64,000 nucleotides of DNA from Deltaproteobacteria bacterium (GTDB lineage Bacteria; Myxococcota; Kuafuiibacteriia; Kuafuiibacteriales; Kuafuiibacteriaceae), in assembly GCA_040218735.1 (NCBI GenBank), contig JAVJQW010000048.1:99441-163440 (forward strand), given 5' to 3'. Below the pieces are notes generated by a model that was not told where the DNA came from, ran no database searches, and saw only the letters and a list, made by a program, of their open reading frames with translations. Every line of letters begins with the position of its first letter. The first letter of the stretch is position 1. A program made the translations under genes and the position numbers. Shown here one piece after another: positions 5,201 to 60,019 of the stretch.

Positions 5201-5412
5201 ACGTCACGATCGACGCCTCCGCGATCGACGCGTTCAGCGGCTCGTGGGAGGGCGCCCCCGGCGAGACGAACCGGCTGGCGGGCACCGTGACGATCGACGG
5301 GCGCACGATCGAGCTGAGCACGGAAGACCTCGACCCGGACTTCGACCAGGGACAGCTCGACGCGAGCTACGTGTGCACCGAGCGACTCTTACAGACGCTG
5401 CCCCCCGAGTGA
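2272..5412 (+). CDS. Large Cys-containing lipoprotein with four tandem ~250-aa repeats, function unknown
   Basis: Signal peptide with lipobox-like SFGC. Repeated CGF...C...DC...GRV.VSG...PV.P...PR.A...C...TP...N...G.VT.DG...F.C pattern. Paralog of 14840-17245. Confidence 0.8.
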   Translation: MRRLLLVASLIAGPSFGCSRDVDSVEVARVLVEDAAALVWAAERAGCFDGAPSEVTGAVGSLGSAVARAEGCAVELATDFDPCGPVQRAMGGTVVVSGTRRTLGTVTGDAVRAVVPDGPDATSYAIEATLEGFVGERRGEPVAVMNVSGRLAIEARVRHAAGWAGGCAAPTPHVALDAVGLDVHASIVDGATESEGHLTGTLSGARGKVGVQENRVAGTIVFDGSSETIEAPLRLGYNAAAFLESFACSADVARPVSFTCGPPSPAAATRLVAASAEAMAVVARLAKSAPCGFDAVAPIVQADEPGRSRSTKQIVDCRIDLGEGVEVGVACEGAPTIASGAVRVTGMMTSQGHIAAGGAEVVPSTDDALTFDFTEVVFDGFAVSQGGARTILNGTATGAVQPRLARSKSSGLCTVLTPMTRVEHALEDTVVLVDAPDIHATGTIERAFTGATLGPWTPDPNTIEGQVTVAGETHEVLAPITSAFDAEVFEQTWRCGDASTAQPHVCDVATAMAEDIGRGGSALLATIGTLIEDDAQCGFSTPSVITNVQTTGAVGSPTGQGVFTISACTLELSQPTVVGTDCFGNETWVQGRVSVSGTKTVDGWITGDASEPVLPASRDGVRYDLVLDADGLTVHADTGALEGQQIELVRGTASGVFAPRVAIDEDVGACTILTPEAQVSDLDLAATVRTTREGRTLEANVDAAAIHATVGRFGPEDENRTFGSVTVDGQVVAFEAPLDLGYDARRFVAGFSCREGMYIPFDDRDCDMRQVLAEVGARLLVQTIGTVTEIANGDDFDCAFGGDDVYDDPSNVQGAHGQPGFLEWRIAGCRLRYNDGNLREYDRDCRDHAKMIQGAAVVDGRREIHGIRDEIDVTFGSDVQYVHPTTPNATTVEYTAVRFTEFSTYQLAPGVTEPEHRIWIHSGALAGTVEPMTGPDDGSDDYFDRGDYDIPTPIARITGLAASAIDATILYEGKRFDVTIDASAIDAFSGSWEGAPGETNRLAGTVTIDGRTIELSTEDLDPDFDQGQLDASYVCTERLLQTLPPE

Positions 5413-8012
5413 TCGGTGCGCCCGCGTCCCAGCCATCGCTCCAGCGCGTCCCGCAGCGCGCTCTTCGTGATCGGTTTGGCGAGGTGCTCGTCCATGCCGG
5501 CGTCGAGGCACGCGCGGCGATCCTCCGTCGATGCGTTGGCGGTGAGCGCGACGATCGGCGTGCGGTCCTCACCTTCCAGCGCGCGGAGGATCTGGGTCGC
5601 TTCGTAGCCGTCCATCACCGGCATCTGGCAGTCCATCAACACCAGGTCGAAGCGCTCGCGGCGGAAGCGAACCACCGCGTCGCGCCCGTCCGAAGCCAGC
5701 ACGACCTCCACCCCGAAGGACTCCAACATCTTCTGCAGCACCCGCTGGTTCACGCGGTTGTCGTCGACGGCCAACACCCGGCCCGTGAAGCTCTGCTTCT
5801 TCTCCGGAGCGTCGTGGGCTTTGCTGCCCTGCACGGCGATCGCCAGCACTTCTGCGATGCGCGCGCCACGGCTCGGACGCATCAACGTGCCGCACGCGCT
5901 CGTCACGGGAGAGCGCTGCCCCAGCGGTGTCCACAAGACCCACGGGAGATCGTACGCCTCGAGGTCGAACGCGTCCGCGAGGGCGACGTCCACCAGGACG
6001 ACGTCGATGGCCTCCGGTCCGCCGAGTAGGTCGCTCGTCTCTTCCAGGTCGTGCGCCACGTAGGCGCGTACGCCGAGCAACGCGAGCTGTCGAACGGCCG
6101 CGCCGCGGATCGCGTCGTGCGGGCTCAGCACCAGCACGCCGCGCACCGGAGGCCGTAGGGGGAGCGGAAGCGCTGGAGCGAGCGGGAGCGACACGGACAC
6201 TGTGAACGTCGTGCCTTGGGACGGTTGGCTCGCCACCGTCACGTCGCCGCCCATCATCTGCGCGAAGCGCCGGGCGATGGGGAGGCCGAGGCCGGTCCCT
6301 CCGAACTTGCGGGTCGTCGACGCGTCGCCTTGGGCGAAGGCGTCGAAGATCGACTCGAGGCGGCCGGGTGCGATCCCGATCCCGGTGTCCGCGATCTCGA
6401 TCTCGATGTCGGCGTGCCCATCACGCTCCTTTCCCCGCGCCACGATCCGCACCCATCCGTGCTCCGTGAACTTGACGGCGTTCCCCACGAGGTTGCCGAG
6501 GAGCTGACGCAGTCGACTCGCGTCACCGACGACCGAGCGCGGTGTCTTGGGGTCGACGTCGAGCACGATCTCGAAGTCGCGGTTCGAGCTCACGCCGCTG
6601 AATGTCTCGACGATCGACTCGAGCTCCGCGAGCAGATCGAACGGTGACGACTCCAGCTCCATCCGCCCCGCGTCGATCTTCGAGAAGTCCAGGATGTCGT
6701 TGAGGAGCGCCAGGAGCGCGCGCGCCGAACCGTGCGCGGCCTGCGCGTACTCCCGAAGCTCGCCTTCGTGAGCCTGTTCGAGGAGCAGCTCCGTCATGCC
6801 CAGCACCCCGTTCATCGGCGTGCGGATCTCGTGGCTCATGTTGGCGATGAACCGCGACTTGTGCGCCGACGCCTCCTCCGCTTCGACGCGCGCCTCCTCC
6901 AGCTGCTCCGTACGTTGCGCGACTTTCTCCTCGAGCTGATCGGTCTGGGCACGGAGGCGCCGGAGCATTCGGTTCAGCGCGTTCTCGAGATCGATCGCTT
7001 CCTTCGGTCGGTAACCTTCGACGTGCGGGATGAAGTCGTTGCCCGCTTCACCGTTGGCGCCGATCCGCTCGGCGGCGTCGGAGATCTGCGCGATGGGGCG
7101 CGCTGTCCACCGCGCGAGCAAGACGGAGAACAGCAACCCGAACGCGAGCACGACGCCGGCCAGGGCGACGGTCCGTTGGAGCGCCGCATCGGCCGCGATC
7201 GTCGCCACCGACGCGGGTTGAAGGACGAGGATGGTCCACTGCGTTTGCCCGACCGCGGCCGCTACCACCGCGCCGTTGGTTTCGACACCCTCGATCGTCG
7301 CGTGGCGCTCGCGTCCCTTCGTCTCCATCGTCGGCGTATAGATGGGGACGTTGGGGAGGATCTGAACGTCCTCACCGAAGGGCTTCGCGGTGTCGAGGAT
7401 GACGCGCCGGTCCGCGTCGAAGACGATCGCACGCCCCGACGGGACGTGTTGAAGGGCGCGCTCGGTTGCGCGGCGCAGCGGGCCGAGATCGAGGGACAGC
7501 GCGACGTAGCCCGCGAACTTCGCACCGCCCAGTGGCGCCGCGAGGTGAACGTTGCGGACCTTCGTGGTGTAACCCACCTGCGGTCGCGAGATCACGGCGC
7601 GACGGAGCTCTCGAACCTTCTTGAAGTAGTCGCGCTTCGAGTAGTCGGTGCCGGCGGAGCGCCCGGTGGCGTCGCTCGATGTGATCCCTCGCCCGTTTGC
7701 GTCACCCACCACGATGTGTTGCGCTTCGCTGAAGCGTTGCTGGTACTCGAGCAGCAGCTTTCGGGCGAAGCGGTCGTTGCGGAGGACGCGCTTCGTATCG
7801 AGCACCGCCGCGAGCCCCTCGATCGTACGCAGCTCGCGCTCCATCTCGGCCTCGATCTGATCCGCGAGGCTCTCGACCACGAGCTGCCGCTCGGAGGACG
7901 CGGTGCTCGACAGCACCGCCTCGAGCTCCTGCGTTTGGAACGCACCCAACACGAAGGTCGCGACGCCTGCGCTGGTCGCGGTGCAGACGAAGATGGTGGA
8001 CACGAGACGCAT
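5367..8012 (-). CDS. Hybrid sensor histidine kinase (Cache-HAMP-HisKA-HATPase-degenerate REC-REC)
   Basis: Two TM segments around a Cache-like region (DYSKRDYF), [38 protein letters not shown], and a C-terminal receiver [13 protein letters not shown]...KP. ATG 8012 chosen as start. Confidence 0.93.
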
Positions 8013-8086
8013 GGAGGTCCCACTCGGTCTTCGGACCGGTGTCACCCGTACTGGAGGCCCAACGTCTCACGACGGCGCGCCCAAGC

Positions 8087-45876: not shown

Positions 45877-47172
45877 TCAGGGCGGCCCGAAGGGGTAGAC
45901 CTCCGTTGCGCCGTTGGCCTCGATGACGACCGCGAAGCCGTCGGCGAAGGGGAGGAGCGCGCGGTCGAGACCTTCGAAGCGGGCGAGGGCGCCATCGCAT
46001 GGGCCGAACCCCGGCACGAAGTGGTAGACGGCGACGAAGTCCGCCGCGCCGGTGGTGTACGTCGCGAGGTAGGTGACGCCCCGGTCGGTCTGGGTCGTTC
46101 GATCCACGAAGCCCTCGGGCCCGGTGTCGTGCAGCTCTTCCCCGATCTCGCCGTGCTTGGTGAGCCGGGCGAATCGTCCATTGACCGTGCCGGCGCGTAA
46201 CGCGGCGAGCAGCGTGGCACCTGTGGCGTGCAGCCCGACCACCGCCTGTGGCAAGGTCGCGATCGGGGTCAGCGCGTCACCGTCGAGACGAAACAGCGCG
46301 TCGTCGGCCGCGAGCCAGCGCGTGGCCTGGTGATCGTCCGCGGCGTTCATCCACCGGGCGACCCCGACATCCCCGACGCGGCGCACTTCGGCGCCGTCGA
46401 AGCGGAAGAGGGCGCCCGCGGGCCCGACGAGCACCACGTCGTCCCCGATCCGTCGTGCATGGACGATACGTTCGGTCGGTTCGGAGGCGATCGCGGTGAC
46501 GGCGGGCGCGCCGAGTTCCCAGCGGGCCAGCCCGCGCGCATCGACTTGCGCAAGGAGCTCCCGGCCGCCGGTGGCGACCGGCAAGGCCTCGAGTCCAGCA
46601 GGGAGGGGGTGCTCATGGGGCGCTTGCCCCTCCGCGATCAAGGTCAGTCGGTCCGAATAGATCAGTCCGATCGCTCCGTCGCCGAACGGCACGGCATGGC
46701 GAACGCGACCGGGGGAGAGCTCGATGCGTGGGCGAGTTCGCCATCCACACTGCGCGGCGTCGTTCAGCGGCGCGAGTCGAAACGGCGAGATGGTGTCCGG
46801 GACGTCGGTTTGCGGGAGCCAGCTACCGATCTGTTCGCCATCGAACGATGCGACGAAGATGCTTGCTGCGTCCGGAAGCGGGCGTGCCTTGGCCGACGTG
46901 TTCGACGCGACCCGGCCCGGCGCGAGGGCCAAGGCCTCGAGGCTCGATTCGAACGTCGCGAGGGCGACGGTGCCCACGCGATCGCGCTCGAAGTCGAGCT
47001 GCACGACGCCATGCCGACGGGTCGCGACGTAGGACGCCTGGGCCGCTTGCTCCATCGCGATGAGCCCAGATCCACCTTCGGGGATCGAGGGCAACGCTAG
47101 AAACAGATCGCTTCCACACCCGCCGAGCGCGAGTGCGATCATCGCCGCGGTCGTGTGTCCCGCGTGCTTCAC
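45877..47172 (-). CDS. Hypothetical lipoprotein with a beta-propeller-like C-terminal part
   Basis: Lipobox ALGGC; GTG overlaps the kinase stop (GTGA); repeated LFRFDG/LFRLDG blade motifs. Confidence 0.7.
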   Translation of the reverse strand: MKHAGHTTAAMIALALGGCGSDLFLALPSIPEGGSGLIAMEQAAQASYVATRRHGVVQLDFERDRVGTVALATFESSLEALALAPGRVASNTSAKARPLPDAASIFVASFDGEQIGSWLPQTDVPDTISPFRLAPLNDAAQCGWRTRPRIELSPGRVRHAVPFGDGAIGLIYSDRLTLIAEGQAPHEHPLPAGLEALPVATGGRELLAQVDARGLARWELGAPAVTAIASEPTERIVHARRIGDDVVLVGPAGALFRFDGAEVRRVGDVGVARWMNAADDHQATRWLAADDALFRLDGDALTPIATLPQAVVGLHATGATLLAALRAGTVNGRFARLTKHGEIGEELHDTGPEGFVDRTTQTDRGVTYLATYTTGAADFVAVYHFVPGFGPCDGALARFEGLDRALLPFADGFAVVIEANGATEVYPFGPP

Positions 47173-48389
47173 ACCAACGTCGACAACAACGCGGCGCACA
47201 TGAACGCCGCGACCGCGGTGCACAGGATCGCCGCGCGCGTCGTGACCGACATCCTCGAGAACGCCACGCGGCGCCGCGCGGGGAGGGGCTGGTAGCGCCA
47301 CTCGGTCGCGCCGCGCCTGCCGATCACCGTGGGGCCCACCGCGAGGCCCTCGCGGGTGCGGCGGCGGAAGACGTCGGTGTCGAGGCCGGGGAGGGTGGAG
47401 GCGACGGGGAAGGCGCCTTCGAAGTCGGGGCGGTCGCGGCCGCTGACGAGCGCGTCGATCACCCGGCGCTTCTCGACCATGATCGCGCCGAAGAGCTCCT
47501 TCACCCACGCGCCGACCTCGACGCTCGAGGTCGCCGAGCCCCGCAGGAACTCTTCGAGCGCGCGTTGCAGGTCCAGCGCCGTCGCGTAGCGGCGGTCCGG
47601 GTCGCGCTCCAGCGCGCGCAGCACGATCGCCTCGAGCGCCTTTGGGTAGCCGCGCACCACCTGCGAGGGGGGCGGGATCGGTGCCTCGGTGATCGCTTCG
47701 AGGATGTCGTGCGAACGTTCGAAGTGGAACAGCCGGCGCCCCGTGGTCAGCTCGTACAAGACGACGCCGAGCGAGAACAGATCCGAGCGCCGGTCGAGTG
47801 ACGTCCCCATGCACTGTTCCGGGCTCATGTAGCTGTACTTGCCCTTGAGCATCCCCGCGCCGGTCTTCGACGTCTGCGTGCGCGCCTTCGCGATCCCGAA
47901 GTCGACGATCTTCACGTCGCCCGCGTAGGTGACGAGCACGTTGTGCGGCGACACGTCGCGGTGGACGATGTTGAGCGGCTTGCCGTCGTACCCCGTCTGC
48001 TCGTGCGCGTGGTGCAGCGCCTTGCAGGTGTCGGCGACGATACGCGCCGCGATCGCGACGGGGATCGACTGCTCCAGCTCCGTCGCCCGGTGCGTGATCT
48101 CGACGAGGTCCTCGCCCTCGATCAGCTCCATCGCGATGAAGTACTGATCGTCCATCACGCCGAGGTCGTAGATCTGCACGACGTTCGGGTGGTTCAACCC
48201 CGCCGAAGTGCGCGCCTCGTCGAGGAACATCGAGACAAACGTCGCGTCCCGCGCGAGCGCCGGGAGGAGCCGCTTCACGACGACGAGCCGATCGAAGTCC
48301 GGGAGCGCGTGGTGCCGCGCGAGGAAGATCTCCGCCATCCCGCCGGTGGCGATCTTCTCGATGAGCTCGTATCGGCCGAAGCGCCGCAC
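47169..48389 (-). CDS. Membrane-anchored Ser/Thr protein kinase
   Basis: IATGGMAEIF, VVVKRL, HRDVSPHN, DFGIAK, YMSPEQ, C-terminal TM; GGAGG upstream of GTG 48389. Confidence 0.93.
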   Translation of the reverse strand: MRRFGRYELIEKIATGGMAEIFLARHHALPDFDRLVVVKRLLPALARDATFVSMFLDEARTSAGLNHPNVVQIYDLGVMDDQYFIAMELIEGEDLVEITHRATELEQSIPVAIAARIVADTCKALHHAHEQTGYDGKPLNIVHRDVSPHNVLVTYAGDVKIVDFGIAKARTQTSKTGAGMLKGKYSYMSPEQCMGTSLDRRSDLFSLGVVLYELTTGRRLFHFERSHDILEAITEAPIPPPSQVVRGYPKALEAIVLRALERDPDRRYATALDLQRALEEFLRGSATSSVEVGAWVKELFGAIMVEKRRVIDALVSGRDRPDFEGAFPVASTLPGLDTDVFRRRTREGLAVGPTVIGRRGATEWRYQPLPARRRVAFSRMSVTTRAAILCTAVAAFMCAALLSTLV

Positions 48390-48563
48390 CTGCCCTCCAT
48401 TGAACACGATCCGGGGTGGTGATCGAAAGGGTGCGCACCCGCAACGATCGTCCCTGCGCGGTTCGTCGCGCAGATCACACTCTTGGCGCTCCCGGGGTGC
48501 GGAAGCGCTGCACTGTCGCACCTCGTAGACGGACGCGTCTAAGAGGGGGCCCGCGGTGAGCGG

Positions 48564-49745
48564 CTAGTCCACCTGCGTCATCGCGAGCTCTTCGCTGCTC
48601 GCGGCGCGCTTCTTCTCCATGATCGTCGCGAGGATCACGCCGATCTCGTAGAAGACCACCAGCGGTACGGCCATCATCAGCTGCGAGAGTGGGTCGGCCG
48701 GCGTCAGGAACGCGCCGGCCACGAACGACAGGACGATCGCGTACTTTCGGTACTTCCTCAGGCCCGCCGCCGAGACGATACCCACCGCCGCGAGCATCGC
48801 CAGCGCGAGCGGCAGCTCGAACACCACGCCGAACGCGACCGTGATGCGCAGCAAGAGCCCGAGGTAGTTGTCGACCGTGAACGAGCCGGTCAGCGACGCC
48901 GGCATCATCTGGTTGACCAGGAAGTCGAACATCACCGGGAACATCGCGTAGTACGCGAACAGCCCTCCCCCGATGAACAGGAACGACGCGCTCGCGATGA
49001 CCGGCGCGACCGCCTTCTTCTCGTTCGAGTACAGGCCGGGCGCCACGAAGCGCCACGCCTGGTACAGCCAGATCGGACACGCGAGGAACAGCCCGCACAC
49101 CAGCGCGATCTTCAGGTACGCGAAGAACGGCTCGAGCGGCGAGAGCACCACGAGTTTGTCGCCGGACGTCGCCTTGCCCGCCGCCGCCGCCGCGCGCCGC
49201 ACGACGCGGTTGAGCGCCGCGTTCCGCGGAGGGTCGAGCACCACCAACGCCCCCTCCAGCTGCAGCTCGATCACGATCTCGGACTTCGGATCGTCGACGA
49301 GGTACACGACGTACGGCGTCGGCTCGATGTCCTCCAGGATGTCGGAGACCAGCGCGCCGTCGTCGCCGATCGACTTCGCGTCGACCAGCACCAGCTCCAC
49401 CGGCGCCTTCTTGTCGACCGCGTCCTCCGCGAGCTCACGCACCGGCTCGAGCGACGAGAACGTCCCGAGGAAGCGGACGCGCTCGTGGTCGTCGAGCCGC
49501 TCGGCCAGCGCCGCCCCGCGCTCCGATTTCAGGTCGTGCACGAGCACCGTCTCGACGCGCGCGCGCGACTTCAGGACGTTGGTGAGCGGGGTGATCGAGT
49601 AGTCGAGGATCTCCGGCGCGAAGAACGCCGCGCCGGCGGTGGTGACGACGATGGCGAGCAGCGACTTCGCCAGACGCATGCGCAGCTCGCCGAGGTGTTC
49701 GGTGAGCGAGAGCTTGGTGTCGTCGAGGCCTTCGGAGGTCGCCAT
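48564..49745 (-). CDS. tatC: Twin-arginine translocase TatC with an inserted receiver-like domain
   Basis: LTEHLGELRMRL, SPLEPF, YQAWRFVAPGLYSNEK, FGVVFELP, AFLTPADPLSQ; about 130 extra residues after TM1. Confidence 0.93.
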   Translation of the reverse strand: MATSEGLDDTKLSLTEHLGELRMRLAKSLLAIVVTTAGAAFFAPEILDYSITPLTNVLKSRARVETVLVHDLKSERGAALAERLDDHERVRFLGTFSSLEPVRELAEDAVDKKAPVELVLVDAKSIGDDGALVSDILEDIEPTPYVVYLVDDPKSEIVIELQLEGALVVLDPPRNAALNRVVRRAAAAAGKATSGDKLVVLSPLEPFFAYLKIALVCGLFLACPIWLYQAWRFVAPGLYSNEKKAVAPVIASASFLFIGGGLFAYYAMFPVMFDFLVNQMMPASLTGSFTVDNYLGLLLRITVAFGVVFELPLALAMLAAVGIVSAAGLRKYRKYAIVLSFVAGAFLTPADPLSQLMMAVPLVVFYEIGVILATIMEKKRAASSEELAMTQVD

Positions 49746-49760
49746 CGGGAGCGAGGGGGG

Positions 49761-50054
49761 TTAGCTGCTGCTCTCGACCGCCGCTTCCTTCTTCTGTTCG
49801 ACCGGCTCGCCGTCGGCGGCCTCCGGCGGAAGGAGCTCCGCGACCTCTTCGGATCTGGGCGCCTCGACCTGCTTCGGCGGGTCGGGTTTGTGCATCTCCT
49901 CGTCGACGGTCGTCTTGAAGTCCTCGGTGGCCTTGCGGAACTCACGGATGCCCTTGCCGAGGCTCCGCGCGAGCTCGGGGAGCTTCGTCGGCCCCAGCAC
50001 GATCAGCGCGATGGCCAGGATGATTCCGATTTCCCAGAAGGACAGACCGAACAC
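49761..50054 (-). CDS. tatB: Twin-arginine translocase TatB (TatA/B family)
   Basis: MFGLSFWEIGIILAIALIVLGPTKLPELARSLGK, with GP motif; directly upstream of tatC. Confidence 0.8.
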   Translation of the reverse strand: MFGLSFWEIGIILAIALIVLGPTKLPELARSLGKGIREFRKATEDFKTTVDEEMHKPDPPKQVEAPRSEEVAELLPPEAADGEPVEQKKEAAVESSS

Positions 50055-50113
50055 GGCCGAAACAACATACCAGAGTCGGTTTTTGTTCGCGCGGGCCTTT
50101 GACGCGTGCCGAG

Positions 50114-50137: not shown

Positions 50138-51487
50138 ATGAGCACGAGCCCGAAAGCGCTGATGACCGACCTCTACCAGCTGACTATGGCCGCCGGGTAC
50201 TTCCGGCACGGTCTGCAGGACAAGCGCGTCTCGTTCGAGCTCTTTGTCCGCAAGCTCCCGGAGCATCGACGCTACCTCCTCTTCGCCGGCCTGCAGTCGG
50301 TGATCGAGTACCTGCGGAACGTCCGCTTCTCGGAGTCGCAGATCGCGTACCTCGCCGAGGTCCCGGCGCTGCGCAGCGCGATGTCGTTCGACCTCGTCGA
50401 GTACCTCAGAGACTTCCGCTTCCGCGGCGACGTCTGGGCGATGCCGGAGGGCACCGTGGTCTTCGAGCGCGAGCCGATGATCCGCATCACCGGCACCCTC
50501 CTCGAGACGCAGCTCGTCGAGACGTTCCTCCTCTCCACGATCAACACCGAGACCACCGTCGCCACCAAGGCCTCGCGCATCGTGCGCGCCGCGGGCGGCG
50601 GCACGGTGTTGGAGTTCGGCACCCGCCGCACCTCCCCGGAAGAAGCCGTCGCCTCCGCGCGCGCCGCGTTCCTCGCCGGCTTCTCGGCGACGTCGAACGT
50701 CGAGGCCGGCTACCGCTACGACATCCCCGTCGCCGGCACCGCCGCACACTCCTGGACGATGTCCCACGCGTCGGAGGAGGAGGCGTTTCGGCACTACGTC
50801 GAAGCGTTCCCGAACCAGGCCACCTTGCTCGTCGACACCTACGACACGCTGGAGGGCGTGCGCCGCGCCATCGCGGTCGCGGGTGACAAACTCAAGGGCG
50901 TGCGCCTCGACTCCGGCGACCTCCTCGAGCTGTCGAAGGGCTCGCGCAAGTTGTTGGACGAAGCGGGGCTGAAGGACACCGAGATCATCGCGTCGGGTGA
51001 CCTCAACGAGTTCAAGATCGCCGCGCTCCGCGAAGCGGGCGCACCGATCGACGGCTGGGGCGTCGGCACCGAGCTCGTCCGCTCGCGCGACAACCCCACG
51101 CTCGGCGGCGTCTACAAGATGGTCTACGACCACACCGAGGACCGCCCCGTCGCGAAGTTCTCCGTCGACAAGGAGACGCTCCCCGGCCTGCACCAGGTCT
51201 TCCGCCTCGAGCGCGACGGCCTCGCCGCGCACGACGTGCTCGGGACGCTTCCGGAGTTCCACGTCGACGCGAAGCCGCTGCTCGTGGAGTGGATGAAGGA
51301 CGGCAAGCTCACGCGCGAGCTCCCGTCGCTCGCGGGCCTGCGCAAACACGCGCGCGCGCAGCTCGCCGCGCTGCCCGAGCGGGTGTGTTCGTTCGAGCCG
51401 TGGTCGGCCGAAGAAGCCTACGAAGTCCGCGTCAGCGACGGCCTCACCGCGCTGATCGAAGAAGTTCGCCACCGGGAGATGGACTGA
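50138..51487 (+). CDS. pncB: Nicotinate phosphoribosyltransferase
   Basis: LMTDLYQLTM, LEFGTRR, GTAAHSW, LLVDTYDT, GVRLDSGDL, ASGDLNE, GVGTEL, GGVYK. Confidence 0.96.
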   Translation: MSTSPKALMTDLYQLTMAAGYFRHGLQDKRVSFELFVRKLPEHRRYLLFAGLQSVIEYLRNVRFSESQIAYLAEVPALRSAMSFDLVEYLRDFRFRGDVWAMPEGTVVFEREPMIRITGTLLETQLVETFLLSTINTETTVATKASRIVRAAGGGTVLEFGTRRTSPEEAVASARAAFLAGFSATSNVEAGYRYDIPVAGTAAHSWTMSHASEEEAFRHYVEAFPNQATLLVDTYDTLEGVRRAIAVAGDKLKGVRLDSGDLLELSKGSRKLLDEAGLKDTEIIASGDLNEFKIAALREAGAPIDGWGVGTELVRSRDNPTLGGVYKMVYDHTEDRPVAKFSVDKETLPGLHQVFRLERDGLAAHDVLGTLPEFHVDAKPLLVEWMKDGKLTRELPSLAGLRKHARAQLAALPERVCSFEPWSAEEAYEVRVSDGLTALIEEVRHREMD

Positions 51488-59818: not shown

Positions 59819-60019
59819 ATGGGTTGCCCGAGCATTCAGGAAGGGTTGATCATCCTCTTCGTCCTCGCGCTGATCCTCGGCGCGAGCCGCCTGCCGCAGC
59901 TCGGCGACGGCCTCGGACGGGCCATCCGCAACTTCAAGCGGAGCCTCAAGGGCGACAACGAGATCGACGTGACTCCGCGTGAACCCAAGAAGATCTCGAC
60001 CTCCGACGACGACAGCTGA
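59819..60019 (+). CDS. tatA: Twin-arginine translocase TatA/TatE family subunit
   Basis: IILFVLALILGASRLPQLGDGLGRAIRNFKRSL. Confidence 0.88.
   Translation: MGCPSIQEGLIILFVLALILGASRLPQLGDGLGRAIRNFKRSLKGDNEIDVTPREPKKISTSDDDS

What the first reader, a model, noticed from the sequence alone, without database searches (positions are those of the whole stretch)
49176..49559. TatC with a CheY-like pseudo-receiver inserted between TM1 and TM2
Seen: residues ~63-190 follow the receiver pattern: VLVHD, helix, VRFLGTFSS, VELVLVD (Asp122 at the phospho-acceptor position), DDG turn, YVVYLVD, GALVVLDPP and a final helix. The conserved Thr/Ser and Lys are missing. The flanking TatC motifs are intact and in frame. 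Known: the TM1-TM2 loop of TatC is periplasmic, whereas receiver domains are cytoplasmic. Inference: a co-opted receiver fold on the trans side of the translocase, possibly for gating, substrate handover or partner binding. I know of no described TatC like this.
Basis: partly seen in the sequence, partly recalled or inferred. Interest (0 to 1): 0.78.

Follow-up and report, generated by a model that had tools for sequence, protein, structure and literature searches.

The report
TatC carrying a periplasmic pseudo-receiver domain
A protein-export gene (tatC) from an uncultured myxobacterial lineage carries, in its first outward-facing loop, a degenerate copy of a signalling "receiver" domain that can no longer signal and probably acts as a structural cap; other TatCs with large loop inserts are already known, but not with this fold.

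Summary
The ORF at 48564..49745 (-) is a full TatC. Its profile match breaks after about residue 58 and resumes at about residue 193. The roughly 134-aa insert lies between TM1 and TM2 and has no hydrophobic segment.

The insert is not an artefact. It is present in 32 protein clusters and 16 independent Myxococcota MAG loci, always next to tatA, and evolves with dN/dS below 1.

It folds confidently as a (βα)5 CheY-like domain (pLDDT 89.0). It is also a remote sequence homolog of receivers. The receiver active-site residues are not conserved, so it is a pseudo-receiver.

The claim "no described TatC like this" is only partly right. Deme et al. 2026 solved TatCs with large periplasmic inserts. 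The N. salsuginis insert sits in the same loop and the M. xanthus insert in the other loop, where it forms a trimer. Neither shows detectable similarity to this insert.

A homotrimer of this insert is predicted: score 0.75, best control 0.02. My best reading is a trimeric cap on the TatC3 core. Verdict: a new variant of a known kind, of moderate interest.

The parts
49761..50054 (-). tatA/E-family gene (97 aa) immediately upstream of tatC, with 15 bases between them
   Evidence: PF02416 at 67.3 bits. TIGR01411 at 59.9 bits, cut-off 53.9. A tatA homolog lies directly upstream of tatC in 16 of 16 insert-bearing loci.
48564..49745 (-). tatC, 393 aa plus stop, with the inserted domain
   Evidence: PF00902 E=7.5e-68 over the full profile. 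TIGR00945 at 199.8 bits, cut-off 132.7. PDB TatC chains match at E about 1e-42. GC3 in this frame is 0.96-0.97.
49572..49745 (-). TatC N-terminal cytoplasmic segment and TM1 (residues 1-58)
   Evidence: Aligns to TatC profile positions 1-42 and to residues 4-51 of 9e02_E and 2-49 of 4b4a_A. Kyte-Doolittle peak over residues 25-47. Model helix 14-62.
49170..49571 (-). Inserted pseudo-receiver (CheY-like) domain, residues 59-192, in the first periplasmic loop
   Evidence: No Pfam or NCBIfam hit at E<=1. (βα)5 model with pLDDT 89.0. Foldseek hits to TadZ/CpaE, DesR and NarL receivers, TM 0.62-0.79. The insert profile hits receiver proteins. Maximum 19-aa hydropathy is 0.88, so there is no TM segment.
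48564..49169 (-). TatC core from the conserved P1 strand (KLVVLSPLEPF) through TM2-TM6, the C-terminal tail and the stop codon (residues 193-393)
   Evidence: TIGR00945 positions 43-215 match residues 193-366. Matches 4b4a_A 51-235 and 9dzz_A 55-237. Hydrophobic segments lie within 198-231, 245-273, 294-331 and 353-377.

Best explanation
This is a working tatA-tatC pair in which the first periplasmic loop of TatC (TM1-TM2) has acquired a receiver-type (CheY-like) domain. The domain descends from response-regulator receivers but has lost the phosphorylation machinery, so it is a pseudo-receiver. It cannot act in phosphotransfer: the catalytic residues are gone, and it sits, by inference, outside the cytoplasm. 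I propose that it is a structural oligomerisation module. The Tat core complex is a trimer of TatC with TatB/TatA. In my reading the three inserted domains associate head-to-tail, with the α4 'ELQLEGA' stretch of one copy against β5/α5 of the next. They would form a ring or cap on the periplasmic face that braces the TatC3 assembly and closes its centre. This would be a convergent counterpart of the unrelated trimeric insert of M. xanthus TatC. Shown here: TatC identity, the insertion site, the receiver fold and remote homology, loss of the active site, conservation in one lineage, and purifying selection. Inferred: the periplasmic location (from TatC topology), the trimeric cap (from a prediction and an analogy), and the stabilising role.
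For: TatC identity and the interrupted profile.

Lineage and context: the insert occurs in 32 of 32 proteins found with it, all PF00902 and 386-409 aa. It occurs in 16 MAG loci titled Myxococcota, Myxococcales, Deltaproteobacteria or, for L001, only 'bacterium'. tatA is adjacent in 16 of 16 loci.

Fold: domain model pLDDT 89.0, pTM 0.85, β-α x5. Foldseek ranks 1-12 are all TadZ/CpaE or DesR receiver domains (E 1.6e-4 to 1.6e-3, TM 0.54-0.74), and the NarL receiver 3eul scores TM 0.70/0.79 at rmsd 2.8. In the ESM Atlas's own model, 9 of 10 structure rows are clusters with PF00072 in 100% of members.

Sequence homology: the insert profile against the PDB gives MrkE receiver E=0.009 (5-126 vs 8-123) and a histidine-kinase receiver E=0.024. 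Against 1.84 billion representatives it gives 21 hits at E<=1e-3. Five carry PF00902, one is an unassigned fragment, 13 carry Response_reg (E 6.9e-6 to 9.2e-4, full-length register, 7 with LytTR), and 2 are multi-stretch proteins without a receiver.

Active-site loss: position 122 is D 15, S 16, T 1 of 32. The Lys position 171 is never K. D71 is D in 8 of 32. The Thr/Ser position is not conserved.

Topology: no hydrophobic segment in the insert (max KD 0.88); insert charge K+R 18, D+E 26.

Selection: insert dN/dS is 0.24-0.74 in the 8 of 16 loci tested.

Trimer: complex prediction with 3 copies gave a score of 0.75 against a best control of 0.02. That mark was reached by 20 of 30 proteins solved as pairs of one chain and by 1 of 23 solved as single chains. 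The runs agree in at least 82% of contacts and the partner's pLDDT is at least 81. Invariant or near-invariant residues D135, L163, G165, A166, V168, R174 and R180 lie in the predicted interface.

Against: The trimer is only a prediction. The calibration used two copies and other alignments, so its counts hold only roughly here. Receiver domains are known to pair through α4-β5-α5, so the pass may partly reflect memory of solved receiver dimers.

Conservation is only weakly enriched at the predicted interface. The mean majority fraction is 0.686 against 0.568 (Mann-Whitney p=0.010), but 20 of 137 circular shifts of the interface mask do as well.

The only solved TatC with an insert at this same site (N. 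salsuginis) has a disordered, unresolved insert, so a P1 insert need not form an ordered cap.

The full-length model has pTM 0.56, so the position of the domain relative to the TatC core is not established. I could not see model coordinates.

The insert evolves faster than the core (dN/dS 0.24-0.74 against 0.13-0.35).

Pfam's own Response_reg model does not reach significance. The window's insert gives no hit at E<=1, and 2 of 17 inserts hit with a best E of 0.0099. The homology is therefore remote.
Confidence: 0.5

Rival explanations
1. Docking platform. The pseudo-receiver is a periplasmic binding site for another protein, such as a maturation or quality-control factor, signal peptidase, TatA/TatB periplasmic ends, or the emerging substrate.
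For: Pseudo-receivers commonly serve as protein-protein interaction modules. The closest structural matches are the atypical receivers of TadZ/CpaE; their role in localisation and interaction is recalled, not tested here. The most conserved stretch of the insert (ELQLEGA...PPR...R..RR) covers α4-β5-α5, the usual receiver interaction face.
Against: No conserved neighbouring gene other than tatA suggests a partner. Nicotinate phosphoribosyltransferase is divergent in 10 of 16 loci, and the Ser/Thr kinase downstream in the window appears in 0 of 16. The conserved face is already used in the predicted self-association. No partner was tested.
Confidence: 0.2
2. Tolerated decoration. The site after TM1 is a permissive insertion point, and the domain is a lineage-specific passenger with little effect on transport, comparable to the flexible N. 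salsuginis insert.
For: Two unrelated inserts occupy the same site in distant lineages (no similarity at E<=10). The N. salsuginis insert is disordered in the complex. The insert evolves faster than the core. The family is tiny: only 6 of the 21 profile hits among 1.84 billion representatives are TatCs or an unassigned fragment.
Against: It is kept at full length, in frame and foldable, in all 32 proteins and 16 loci, down to 38% identity within the insert. dN/dS is below 1 in 8 of 8 comparisons. Several surface-motif residues are invariant.
Confidence: 0.15
3. Periplasmic ligand or cation sensor. The remnant acidic pocket at the old phosphorylation site binds a divalent cation or a small molecule and tunes Tat core-complex assembly to periplasmic conditions.
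For: 31 of 32 sequences keep at least one Asp at position 122 or 171, with a reciprocal D/S pattern (S/D 15, D/S 9, D/D 5, T/D 1, D/A 1, S/S 1). D129 is D in 28 of 32 and D135 is invariant. In the window's own protein all 7 pocket positions examined are Asp. That receivers bind Mg2+ at this pocket is established knowledge, recalled here.
Against: The number of acidic pocket residues drops to 1-3 in many members. The D/S pattern may reflect shared ancestry rather than compensation, and no tree-aware test was run. There is no ligand evidence of any kind.
Confidence: 0.12
4. A true cytoplasmic receiver that regulates TatC by phosphorylation, with an altered membrane topology.
For: The window's own sequence has Asp at the phospho-acceptor position (D122) and an acidic residue after β1 (D71).
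Against: D122 is Asp in only 15 of 32 relatives, Lys is never present, and Thr/Ser is not conserved. The insert contains no hydrophobic segment that could return it to the cytoplasm. TM1 and the cytoplasmic motifs of TatC are intact. No histidine kinase is conserved nearby.
Confidence: 0.02
5. Assembly or annotation artefact: a chimeric join or a frame error.
For: None found.
Against: There is a single open frame with uniform GC3 (0.97 in the insert, 0.958 in the rest). The same architecture appears in 16 independent MAG contigs, some of 3-7 Mb, and in 32 protein clusters from several sources.
Confidence: 0.01

Closest known systems
Nitratifractor salsuginis TatC with a large insert in the TM1-TM2 periplasmic loop (PDB 9E02, 9E04, 9E06, 9E07; Deme et al. 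2026, PMC13323110)
   Same: A TatC of similar length (382 aa) with about 115 extra residues at the same site. Its TM1 aligns at 4-51 and the core resumes at 167, against 13-60 and 206 in the window protein. The paper calls it an 'atypical' TatC with a large periplasmic insert.
   Different: No sequence similarity between the inserts. phmmer leaves them unaligned, and the insert profile does not hit 9e02 at E<=10. The N. salsuginis insert is disordered and unresolved in cryo-EM, so its fold could not be compared. The window's insert is predicted to be a compact, confident receiver fold.
Myxococcus xanthus TatC periplasmic domain (PDB 9E03 complex, 9E0S isolated domain; Deme et al. 2026)
   Same: A folded periplasmic domain inserted in TatC of a member of the same phylum. 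It forms a homotrimer on the three-fold axis that adds TatC-TatC contacts. The window's insert is predicted to self-associate as three copies.
   Different: It sits in the other periplasmic loop. The domain is residues 127-303, directly before TM4, which aligns from about 299. There is no match to the insert profile at E<=10. Neither 9e03 nor 9e0s is among the listed Foldseek rows for the domain model. The window's second periplasmic loop is short (residues 270-292).
Response-regulator receiver domain (Pfam PF00072, CheY-like superfamily)
   Same: The (βα)5 fold. Remote but library-wide significant sequence similarity in full-length register. A conserved DG turn after β3 (D129 in 28 of 32, G130 in 31 of 32) and a Pro after β5 (P172 in 32 of 32).
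   Different: The phospho-acceptor Asp, the acidic pair, Thr/Ser and Lys are not conserved. It is below Pfam significance. It is inserted inside a membrane protein's periplasmic loop rather than being a cytoplasmic module.
Atypical receiver domains of TadZ/CpaE pilus-assembly ATPases (PDB 4dad, 4lda, 4dn6, 4n0p)
   Same: These are the best structural matches (E 1.6e-4 to 1.2e-3, TM 0.54-0.74). They are receiver folds used without phosphorylation (recalled).
   Different: They are N-terminal domains of cytoplasmic ParA/MinD-type ATPases. Identity in the structural alignments is only 15-20%. They do not appear in the sequence-profile hits.

Membership tests
TatC (PF00902 / TIGR00945) | Full-length match to the curated family models above their cut-offs | tested here: met
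   PF00902 at 228.9 bits (cut-off 25.1) over profile 1-208. TIGR00945 at 199.8 bits (cut-off 132.7).
TatC (PF00902 / TIGR00945) | Six transmembrane helices with the N-terminus in the cytoplasm | tested here: inconclusive
   Hydrophobic segments fall within 25-47, 198-231, 245-273, 294-331 and 353-377. Model helices are 14-62, 205-234, 236-280, 291-321, 333-347 and 352-392. This fits six helices, but orientation was not predicted by a topology program or measured.
TatC (PF00902 / TIGR00945) | Conserved cytoplasmic signal-peptide-binding residues (E. coli F94 and E103 positions) | tested here: met
   F233 and E242 are invariant in 32 of 32 sequences. The alignment to E. coli TatC 9dzz_A (query 194-377 to chain 55-237) puts them at or next to positions 94 and 103; I did not view that alignment residue by residue. 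The review PMC13673990 names F94/E103 as the binding site (passage).
TatC (PF00902 / TIGR00945) | Genetic linkage to a tatA/B-family gene | tested here: met
   tatA/E-family ORF 15 bases upstream. Conserved in 16 of 16 loci.
Response-regulator receiver (PF00072) | (βα)5 CheY-like fold | tested here: met
   Predicted model only: pLDDT 89.0. Foldseek top rows are receivers with TM up to 0.79. In the Atlas model, 9 of 10 structure rows are PF00072 clusters.
Response-regulator receiver (PF00072) | Match to the curated Pfam model above the gathering score (30.2 bits) | tested here: not met
   The window's insert has no hit at E<=1. 2 of 17 inserts hit PF00072, best E 0.0099. The relationship shows only in profile searches.
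Response-regulator receiver (PF00072) | Conserved phospho-acceptor Asp at the end of β3 | tested here: not met
   Position 122 is D 15, S 16, T 1 of 32 (A1), and D 4, S 11, G 1, T 1 of 17 (A2).
Response-regulator receiver (PF00072) | Acidic pair after β1, Thr/Ser after β4, Lys after β5 | tested here: not met
   D71 is D in 8 of 32. Position 151 is S 2, T 1 of 32. Position 171 is D 21, S 10, A 1, never K. Which residues define a receiver is recalled knowledge. The register comes from the MrkE and histidine-kinase alignments.
Response-regulator receiver (PF00072) | Cytoplasmic location with a phosphodonor (histidine kinase or Hpt) | not testable with these tools
   A periplasmic location is inferred from the position between TM1 and TM2 and the absence of extra hydrophobic segments. 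No kinase is conserved nearby.
TatC with M. xanthus-type periplasmic domain (9E03/9E0S) | Insert in the TM3-TM4 loop, homologous to the 9E0S domain | tested here: not met
   The window's TM3-TM4 loop is 23 residues. No hit of the insert profile to 9e03/9e0s at E<=10. Neither is among the listed Foldseek rows.
TatC with N. salsuginis-type insert (9E02) | Insert in the TM1-TM2 loop | tested here: met
   9e02_E aligns at 4-51 and from 167; the query aligns at 13-60 and from 206.
TatC with N. salsuginis-type insert (9E02) | Homology of the inserted sequence | tested here: not met
   The inserts are left unaligned by phmmer. No hit of the insert profile at E<=10. The folds cannot be compared because the insert is unresolved in the structures (target length 239).

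The most novel reading that the evidence does not exclude
A response-regulator receiver domain has been moved to the outside of the cytoplasmic membrane and is still a switch. Its remnant acidic pocket keeps at least one Asp at position 122 or 171 in 31 of 32 members, and D129 and D135 are conserved. In this reading the pocket binds a periplasmic cation or small ligand, and binding controls whether the three domains lock the TatC3 core together. That would give this lineage an extracytoplasmic input into Tat translocon assembly, which is not known for any Tat system.
Probability: 0.1. Interest if true: 0.8.

Novelty: new variant of a known kind. Interest (0 to 1): 0.5.

Why it matters
TatC is the conserved receptor of the folded-protein export pathway. 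Until 2025-2026 it was treated as a bare six-helix membrane protein. The two solved 'atypical' TatCs showed that large periplasmic domains can be grafted onto it. This locus adds a third, unrelated graft whose origin can be named: a receiver domain, one of the most typical cytoplasmic signalling modules, reused on the far side of the membrane after losing its chemistry.

If it forms a trimeric cap, two myxobacterial lineages would have bolted different domains onto different loops to reach the same arrangement. [quoted passage not shown]

In practice, a compact, confidently folded extra-membrane domain could serve as a handle for cryo-EM of Tat complexes, as the M. xanthus insert did. The finding is confined to uncultured Myxococcota, and its function is untested.

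Tried and rejected
- **Family scans of the insert alone.** Pfam and NCBIfam gave no family at E<=1. Scanning all 17 inserts against Pfam gave only scattered weak hits: Response_reg in 2, ApbA in 2, eight others in 1 each, best E 0.0079-0.18. None is usable alone.
- **ESM Atlas search by features.** The best scores were 0.79, below the 0.9 level at which the tool says a hit is more than a lead. I used only its structure rows.
- **Conservation on the predicted interface.** Weak and inconclusive: Mann-Whitney p=0.010, but 20 of 137 circular shifts match the observed difference.
- **Reverse HMM from receiver regions of 12 profile hits.** It recovers 15 of 17 TatC inserts (missing L011 and L016) among 1516 segments. 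I reject it as independent evidence because those receivers were selected by the insert profile. For the same reason I did not run a profile-profile comparison against them.
- **Neighbouring genes as clues.** The Ser/Thr kinase directly downstream in the window appears in 0 of 16 loci. Nicotinate phosphoribosyltransferase, divergent upstream, appears in 10 of 16 and has no evident link to Tat.
- **Recent acquisition judged by composition.** Insert GC is 0.714 against 0.655 for the rest, and GC3 is 0.97 against 0.958. There is no foreign signature, and the GC difference fits an Ala/Arg/Asp-rich soluble domain set against membrane helices.
- **Antisense ORFs over the region** (48973..49602 +, 49485..50102 +). 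I treat these as spurious, as is typical of high-GC DNA, and did not test them further.
- **Literature.** 'TatC' + 'CheY-like' gave 1 paper. 'TatC' + 'receiver domain' + 'periplasmic' gave 9. 'pseudo-receiver' + 'periplasmic' gave 7. Judged from titles and abstracts only, none concerns a TatC insert.
- **Not checked.** I did not obtain the N. salsuginis insert sequence or fold.
Full report
**What is there.**
The window has a 393-aa ORF at 48564..49745 on the minus strand. A 97-aa ORF precedes it at 49761..50054, 15 bases upstream.

- The small ORF is a TatA/E-family protein: PF02416 at 67.3 bits; TIGR01411 at 59.9 bits against a cut-off of 53.9.
- The large ORF is TatC. PF00902 covers the whole profile (1-208) at E=7.5e-68. 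TIGR00945 scores 199.8 bits against a cut-off of 132.7.
- The TatC match is interrupted. Profile positions 1-42 align before about residue 58, and positions 43-215 resume at residue 193.
- PDB TatC chains align in the same two blocks. For example, 4b4a_A residues 2-49 and 51-235 match query residues 13-63 and 197-381.

I place the insert at residues 59-192 (49170..49571).

**It is real and selected.**
- A search with residues 58-195 found 32 proteins (E 6.6e-77 to 1.0e-19). All are 386-409 aa and all carry PF00902. The few that have names are called Myxococcota or Myxococcales TatC.
- I aligned the window protein with 31 of them, dropping P0002 because it is identical to the window protein (A1).
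- One scan of genome contigs matched 57 stretches, and 27 of those encode relatives. Sixteen (L001-L016) align across the insert. All 16 are MAGs, titled Myxococcota, Myxococcales, Deltaproteobacteria or, for L001, only 'bacterium'.
- The other 11 (L017-L027) match only from query residue 166-211 onward, at 35-41% identity.
- tatA lies directly upstream in 16 of 16 insert-bearing loci.
- In the 8 of 16 loci that I compared codon by codon (L001-L005, L007, L008, L013), the insert has dN/dS 0.24-0.74 and the TatC core 0.13-0.35. The insert is under purifying selection, but a weaker one than the core. With GC3 near 0.97, dS is compressed, so these ratios are rough.
- The frame is continuous and GC3 is uniform (0.97 in the insert, 0.958 in the rest). 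An assembly artefact is excluded.

**What the insert is.**
- On its own the insert hits no Pfam or NCBIfam family at E<=1.
- In the full-length AlphaFold2 model (mean pLDDT 75.7, pTM 0.56) it is the most confident part, with 10-residue block pLDDT of 76-90. It reads β64-69, α75-85, β90-96, α99-111, β118-122, short α133-136, β145-150, α156-163, β167-170, α175-188.
- I built an insert-only alignment by reference from the window and the 16 loci (A2) and folded it alone: pLDDT 89.0, pTM 0.85, the same five β-α units.
- Foldseek against the PDB with the domain model gives 6 matches at E<=0.001.
  - Ranks 1-12 are all receiver domains of TadZ/CpaE or DesR (TM 0.54-0.74).
  - The NarL receiver 3eul reaches TM 0.70/0.79 at rmsd 2.8.
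  - A few non-receiver α/β proteins appear lower, with TM at or below 0.48 by query: solute-binding proteins and cobalamin-binding domains.
- With the full-length model, the TatC cores come first and then the same receivers.
- The ESM Atlas holds its own model of this protein. By structure, 9 of its 10 rows are clusters with PF00072 in 100% of members, aligned over residues 58-192 at TM 0.67-0.73 by query. The tenth is a glycosyltransferase cluster.

The relationship is also visible in sequence, although remotely.
- The A2 profile against PDB sequences puts the MrkE receiver first (E=0.009, profile 5-126 to chain 8-123) and a histidine-kinase receiver second (E=0.024). Neither 9e02, 9e03 nor 9e0s appears at E<=10.
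- Against 1,835,955,588 representative proteins the profile finds only 21 at E<=1e-3. By Pfam:
  - 5 carry PF00902 (TatCs or TatC fragments);
  - 1 is an unassigned 139-aa fragment;
  - 13 carry Response_reg, 7 of them with a LytTR output domain; they match in one stretch over most of the profile at E 6.9e-6 to 9.2e-4;
  - 2 are multi-stretch proteins with no receiver.
- No free-standing close homolog of the insert turned up.
- Pfam's own Response_reg model reaches only 2 of 17 inserts (best E 0.0099), and not the window's.

So this is a receiver homolog that has drifted beyond the curated family boundary.

**It is a pseudo-receiver.**
Taking the register from the alignments, the tallies across the 32 aligned TatCs are:

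| Receiver feature | Position | Residues in 32 sequences |
|---|---|---|
| Phospho-acceptor Asp | 122 | Asp 15, Ser 16, Thr 1 |
| Acidic residue after β1 | 71 | Asp 8 |
| Thr/Ser after β4 | 151 | Ser 2, Thr 1 |
| Lys after β5 | 171 | Asp 21, Ser 10, Ala 1; never Lys |

What survives is the DG turn after β3 (D129 in 28 of 32, G130 in 31 of 32) and the Pro after β5 (P172 in 32 of 32). The residues that define a receiver are recalled knowledge.

**Where it sits.**
- The insert has no hydrophobic stretch. Its maximum 19-residue Kyte-Doolittle mean is 0.88, against 1.8-2.3 in the TM segments.
- It is net acidic, with K+R 18 and D+E 26.
- TM1 and the cytoplasmic motifs are intact. F233 and E242 are invariant, and they fall at or next to E. 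coli F94 and E103 in the alignment range.
- Solved TatC structures place the TM1-TM2 loop in the periplasm.

The domain is therefore periplasmic by inference. I ran no topology predictor or experiment.

**What is already known.**
Deme et al. [quoted passage not shown]
- The M. xanthus insert (residues 127-303) 'folded to form a homotrimer' (crystal structure 9E0S). It is ordered in the (TatBC)3 complex and adds TatC-TatC contacts.
- The 'unrelated' N. salsuginis insert is disordered.
- One search shows that the N. salsuginis insert occupies the same TM1-TM2 site as ours.
- A 2026 review (PMC13673990, passages) uses the M. xanthus domain as an argument against transport through the centre of the complex.
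- Three literature searches found no paper linking TatC with a receiver or CheY-like insert. They returned 9, 1 and 7 papers, and none is relevant judged by title and abstract.

I could not see the supplements of Deme et al., so I cannot exclude that a wider survey of TatC inserts is tabulated there.

**How it most likely works.**
The Tat core is a trimer, and an unrelated insert in a related phylum member trimerises. I therefore asked whether three copies of this domain are predicted to associate.
- The result was a score of 0.75 against a best control of 0.02.
- That mark was reached by 20 of 30 proteins solved as pairs of one chain and by 1 of 23 proteins solved as single chains.
- The runs agree in at least 82% of contacts, and the partner's pLDDT is at least 81.
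- The contacts are head-to-tail. Residues 159-166 (the α4 end, ELQLEGA) and 132-143 of one copy meet residues 150-187 (the β4 end, β5 and α5) of the next. That pattern suits a closed ring.
- Several of the most conserved residues lie in this interface: D135, L163, G165, A166, V168, R174 and R180.

Two results weaken this reading. The enrichment of conservation at the interface is weak (0.686 against 0.568, Mann-Whitney p=0.010, matched by 20 of 137 circular shifts). The tool also warns that its calibration used two copies and that receiver dimers are in its memory.

My reading, at about even odds, is a trimeric periplasmic cap that braces TatC3. The identity and nature of the insert itself I hold at about 0.9.

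The rivals, in order of weight, are:
1. a docking platform for a periplasmic partner;
2. a tolerated decoration at a permissive site;
3. a cation or ligand sensor that uses the remnant acidic pocket;
4. a true cytoplasmic receiver, which is essentially excluded.

One observation keeps the sensor idea alive. Positions 122 and 171 swap Asp and Ser reciprocally (S/D 15, D/S 9, D/D 5, T/D 1, D/A 1, S/S 1), so 31 of 32 proteins keep at least one Asp there. I ran no tree-aware test, so shared ancestry may explain the pattern.

**Verdict.**
The novelty claim is reduced: TatCs with large periplasmic inserts are known and solved, one of them at this very site. What is new is a third, unrelated insert type of identifiable origin, a degenerate receiver, confined so far to uncultured Myxococcota. 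It is a new variant of a known kind, of moderate interest.

Noticed in passing
window 59819..60019 (+): A second TatA/E-family ORF of 66 aa lies about 10 kb from tatA-tatC (TIGR01411 at 48.6 bits, below the 53.9 cut-off; 32% identical to the tatC-adjacent TatA). No gene in the window scores as TatB above its cut-off, so which paralog plays the TatB role is open.
   Followed up: partly
window 49170..49571 (-), residues 122 and 171; alignment A1: The old phospho-Asp site (122) and the old Lys site (171) swap Asp and Ser reciprocally across 32 relatives (S/D 15, D/S 9, D/D 5, T/D 1, D/A 1, S/S 1). At least one Asp is kept in 31 of 32. This could be compensation in a still-functional pocket or just shared ancestry.
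   Followed up: partly
L008 and L015: Two different insert-bearing tatC loci (66% and 60% identical to the window protein) come from contigs of one and the same MAG. This means either paralogs or a mixed bin.
   Followed up: no
L016:4160-4588: The most divergent insert (39% identity) carries two extra short segments, after the DG turn and after β4. Its stop-to-stop frame extends to 534 aa upstream. It is also one of the two inserts missed by the reverse receiver HMM.
   Followed up: no
window 47169..48521 (-): A Ser/Thr protein kinase ORF (450 aa, kinase domain about 48-334) starts 42 bases downstream of tatC on the same strand. It is absent from the tatC neighbourhood in 0 of 16 related loci, meaning none has it, so it is probably an unrelated neighbour.
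   Followed up: partly
window 50138..51487 (+): Nicotinate phosphoribosyltransferase (NF006696 at 520 bits) is transcribed divergently from tatA. This arrangement is kept in 10 of 16 related loci. It shows conserved synteny with no evident functional link.
   Followed up: partly
window 5370..8066 (-): A stop-to-stop segment of 899 aa has a conventional receiver domain near its C-terminus (aa 765-874, iE 5.4e-10 to my receiver HMM), probably a hybrid sensor kinase or similar. It is the only other receiver-like hit in the window.
   Followed up: no
P0044 (170 aa) and P0038 (139 aa): These are two fragmentary proteins from the representative library. P0044 has the TatC N-terminus followed by a much more divergent match to the insert profile (E=2.3e-4). 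This hints that the insert-bearing TatC clade is wider than the sequences sampled here.
   Followed up: no
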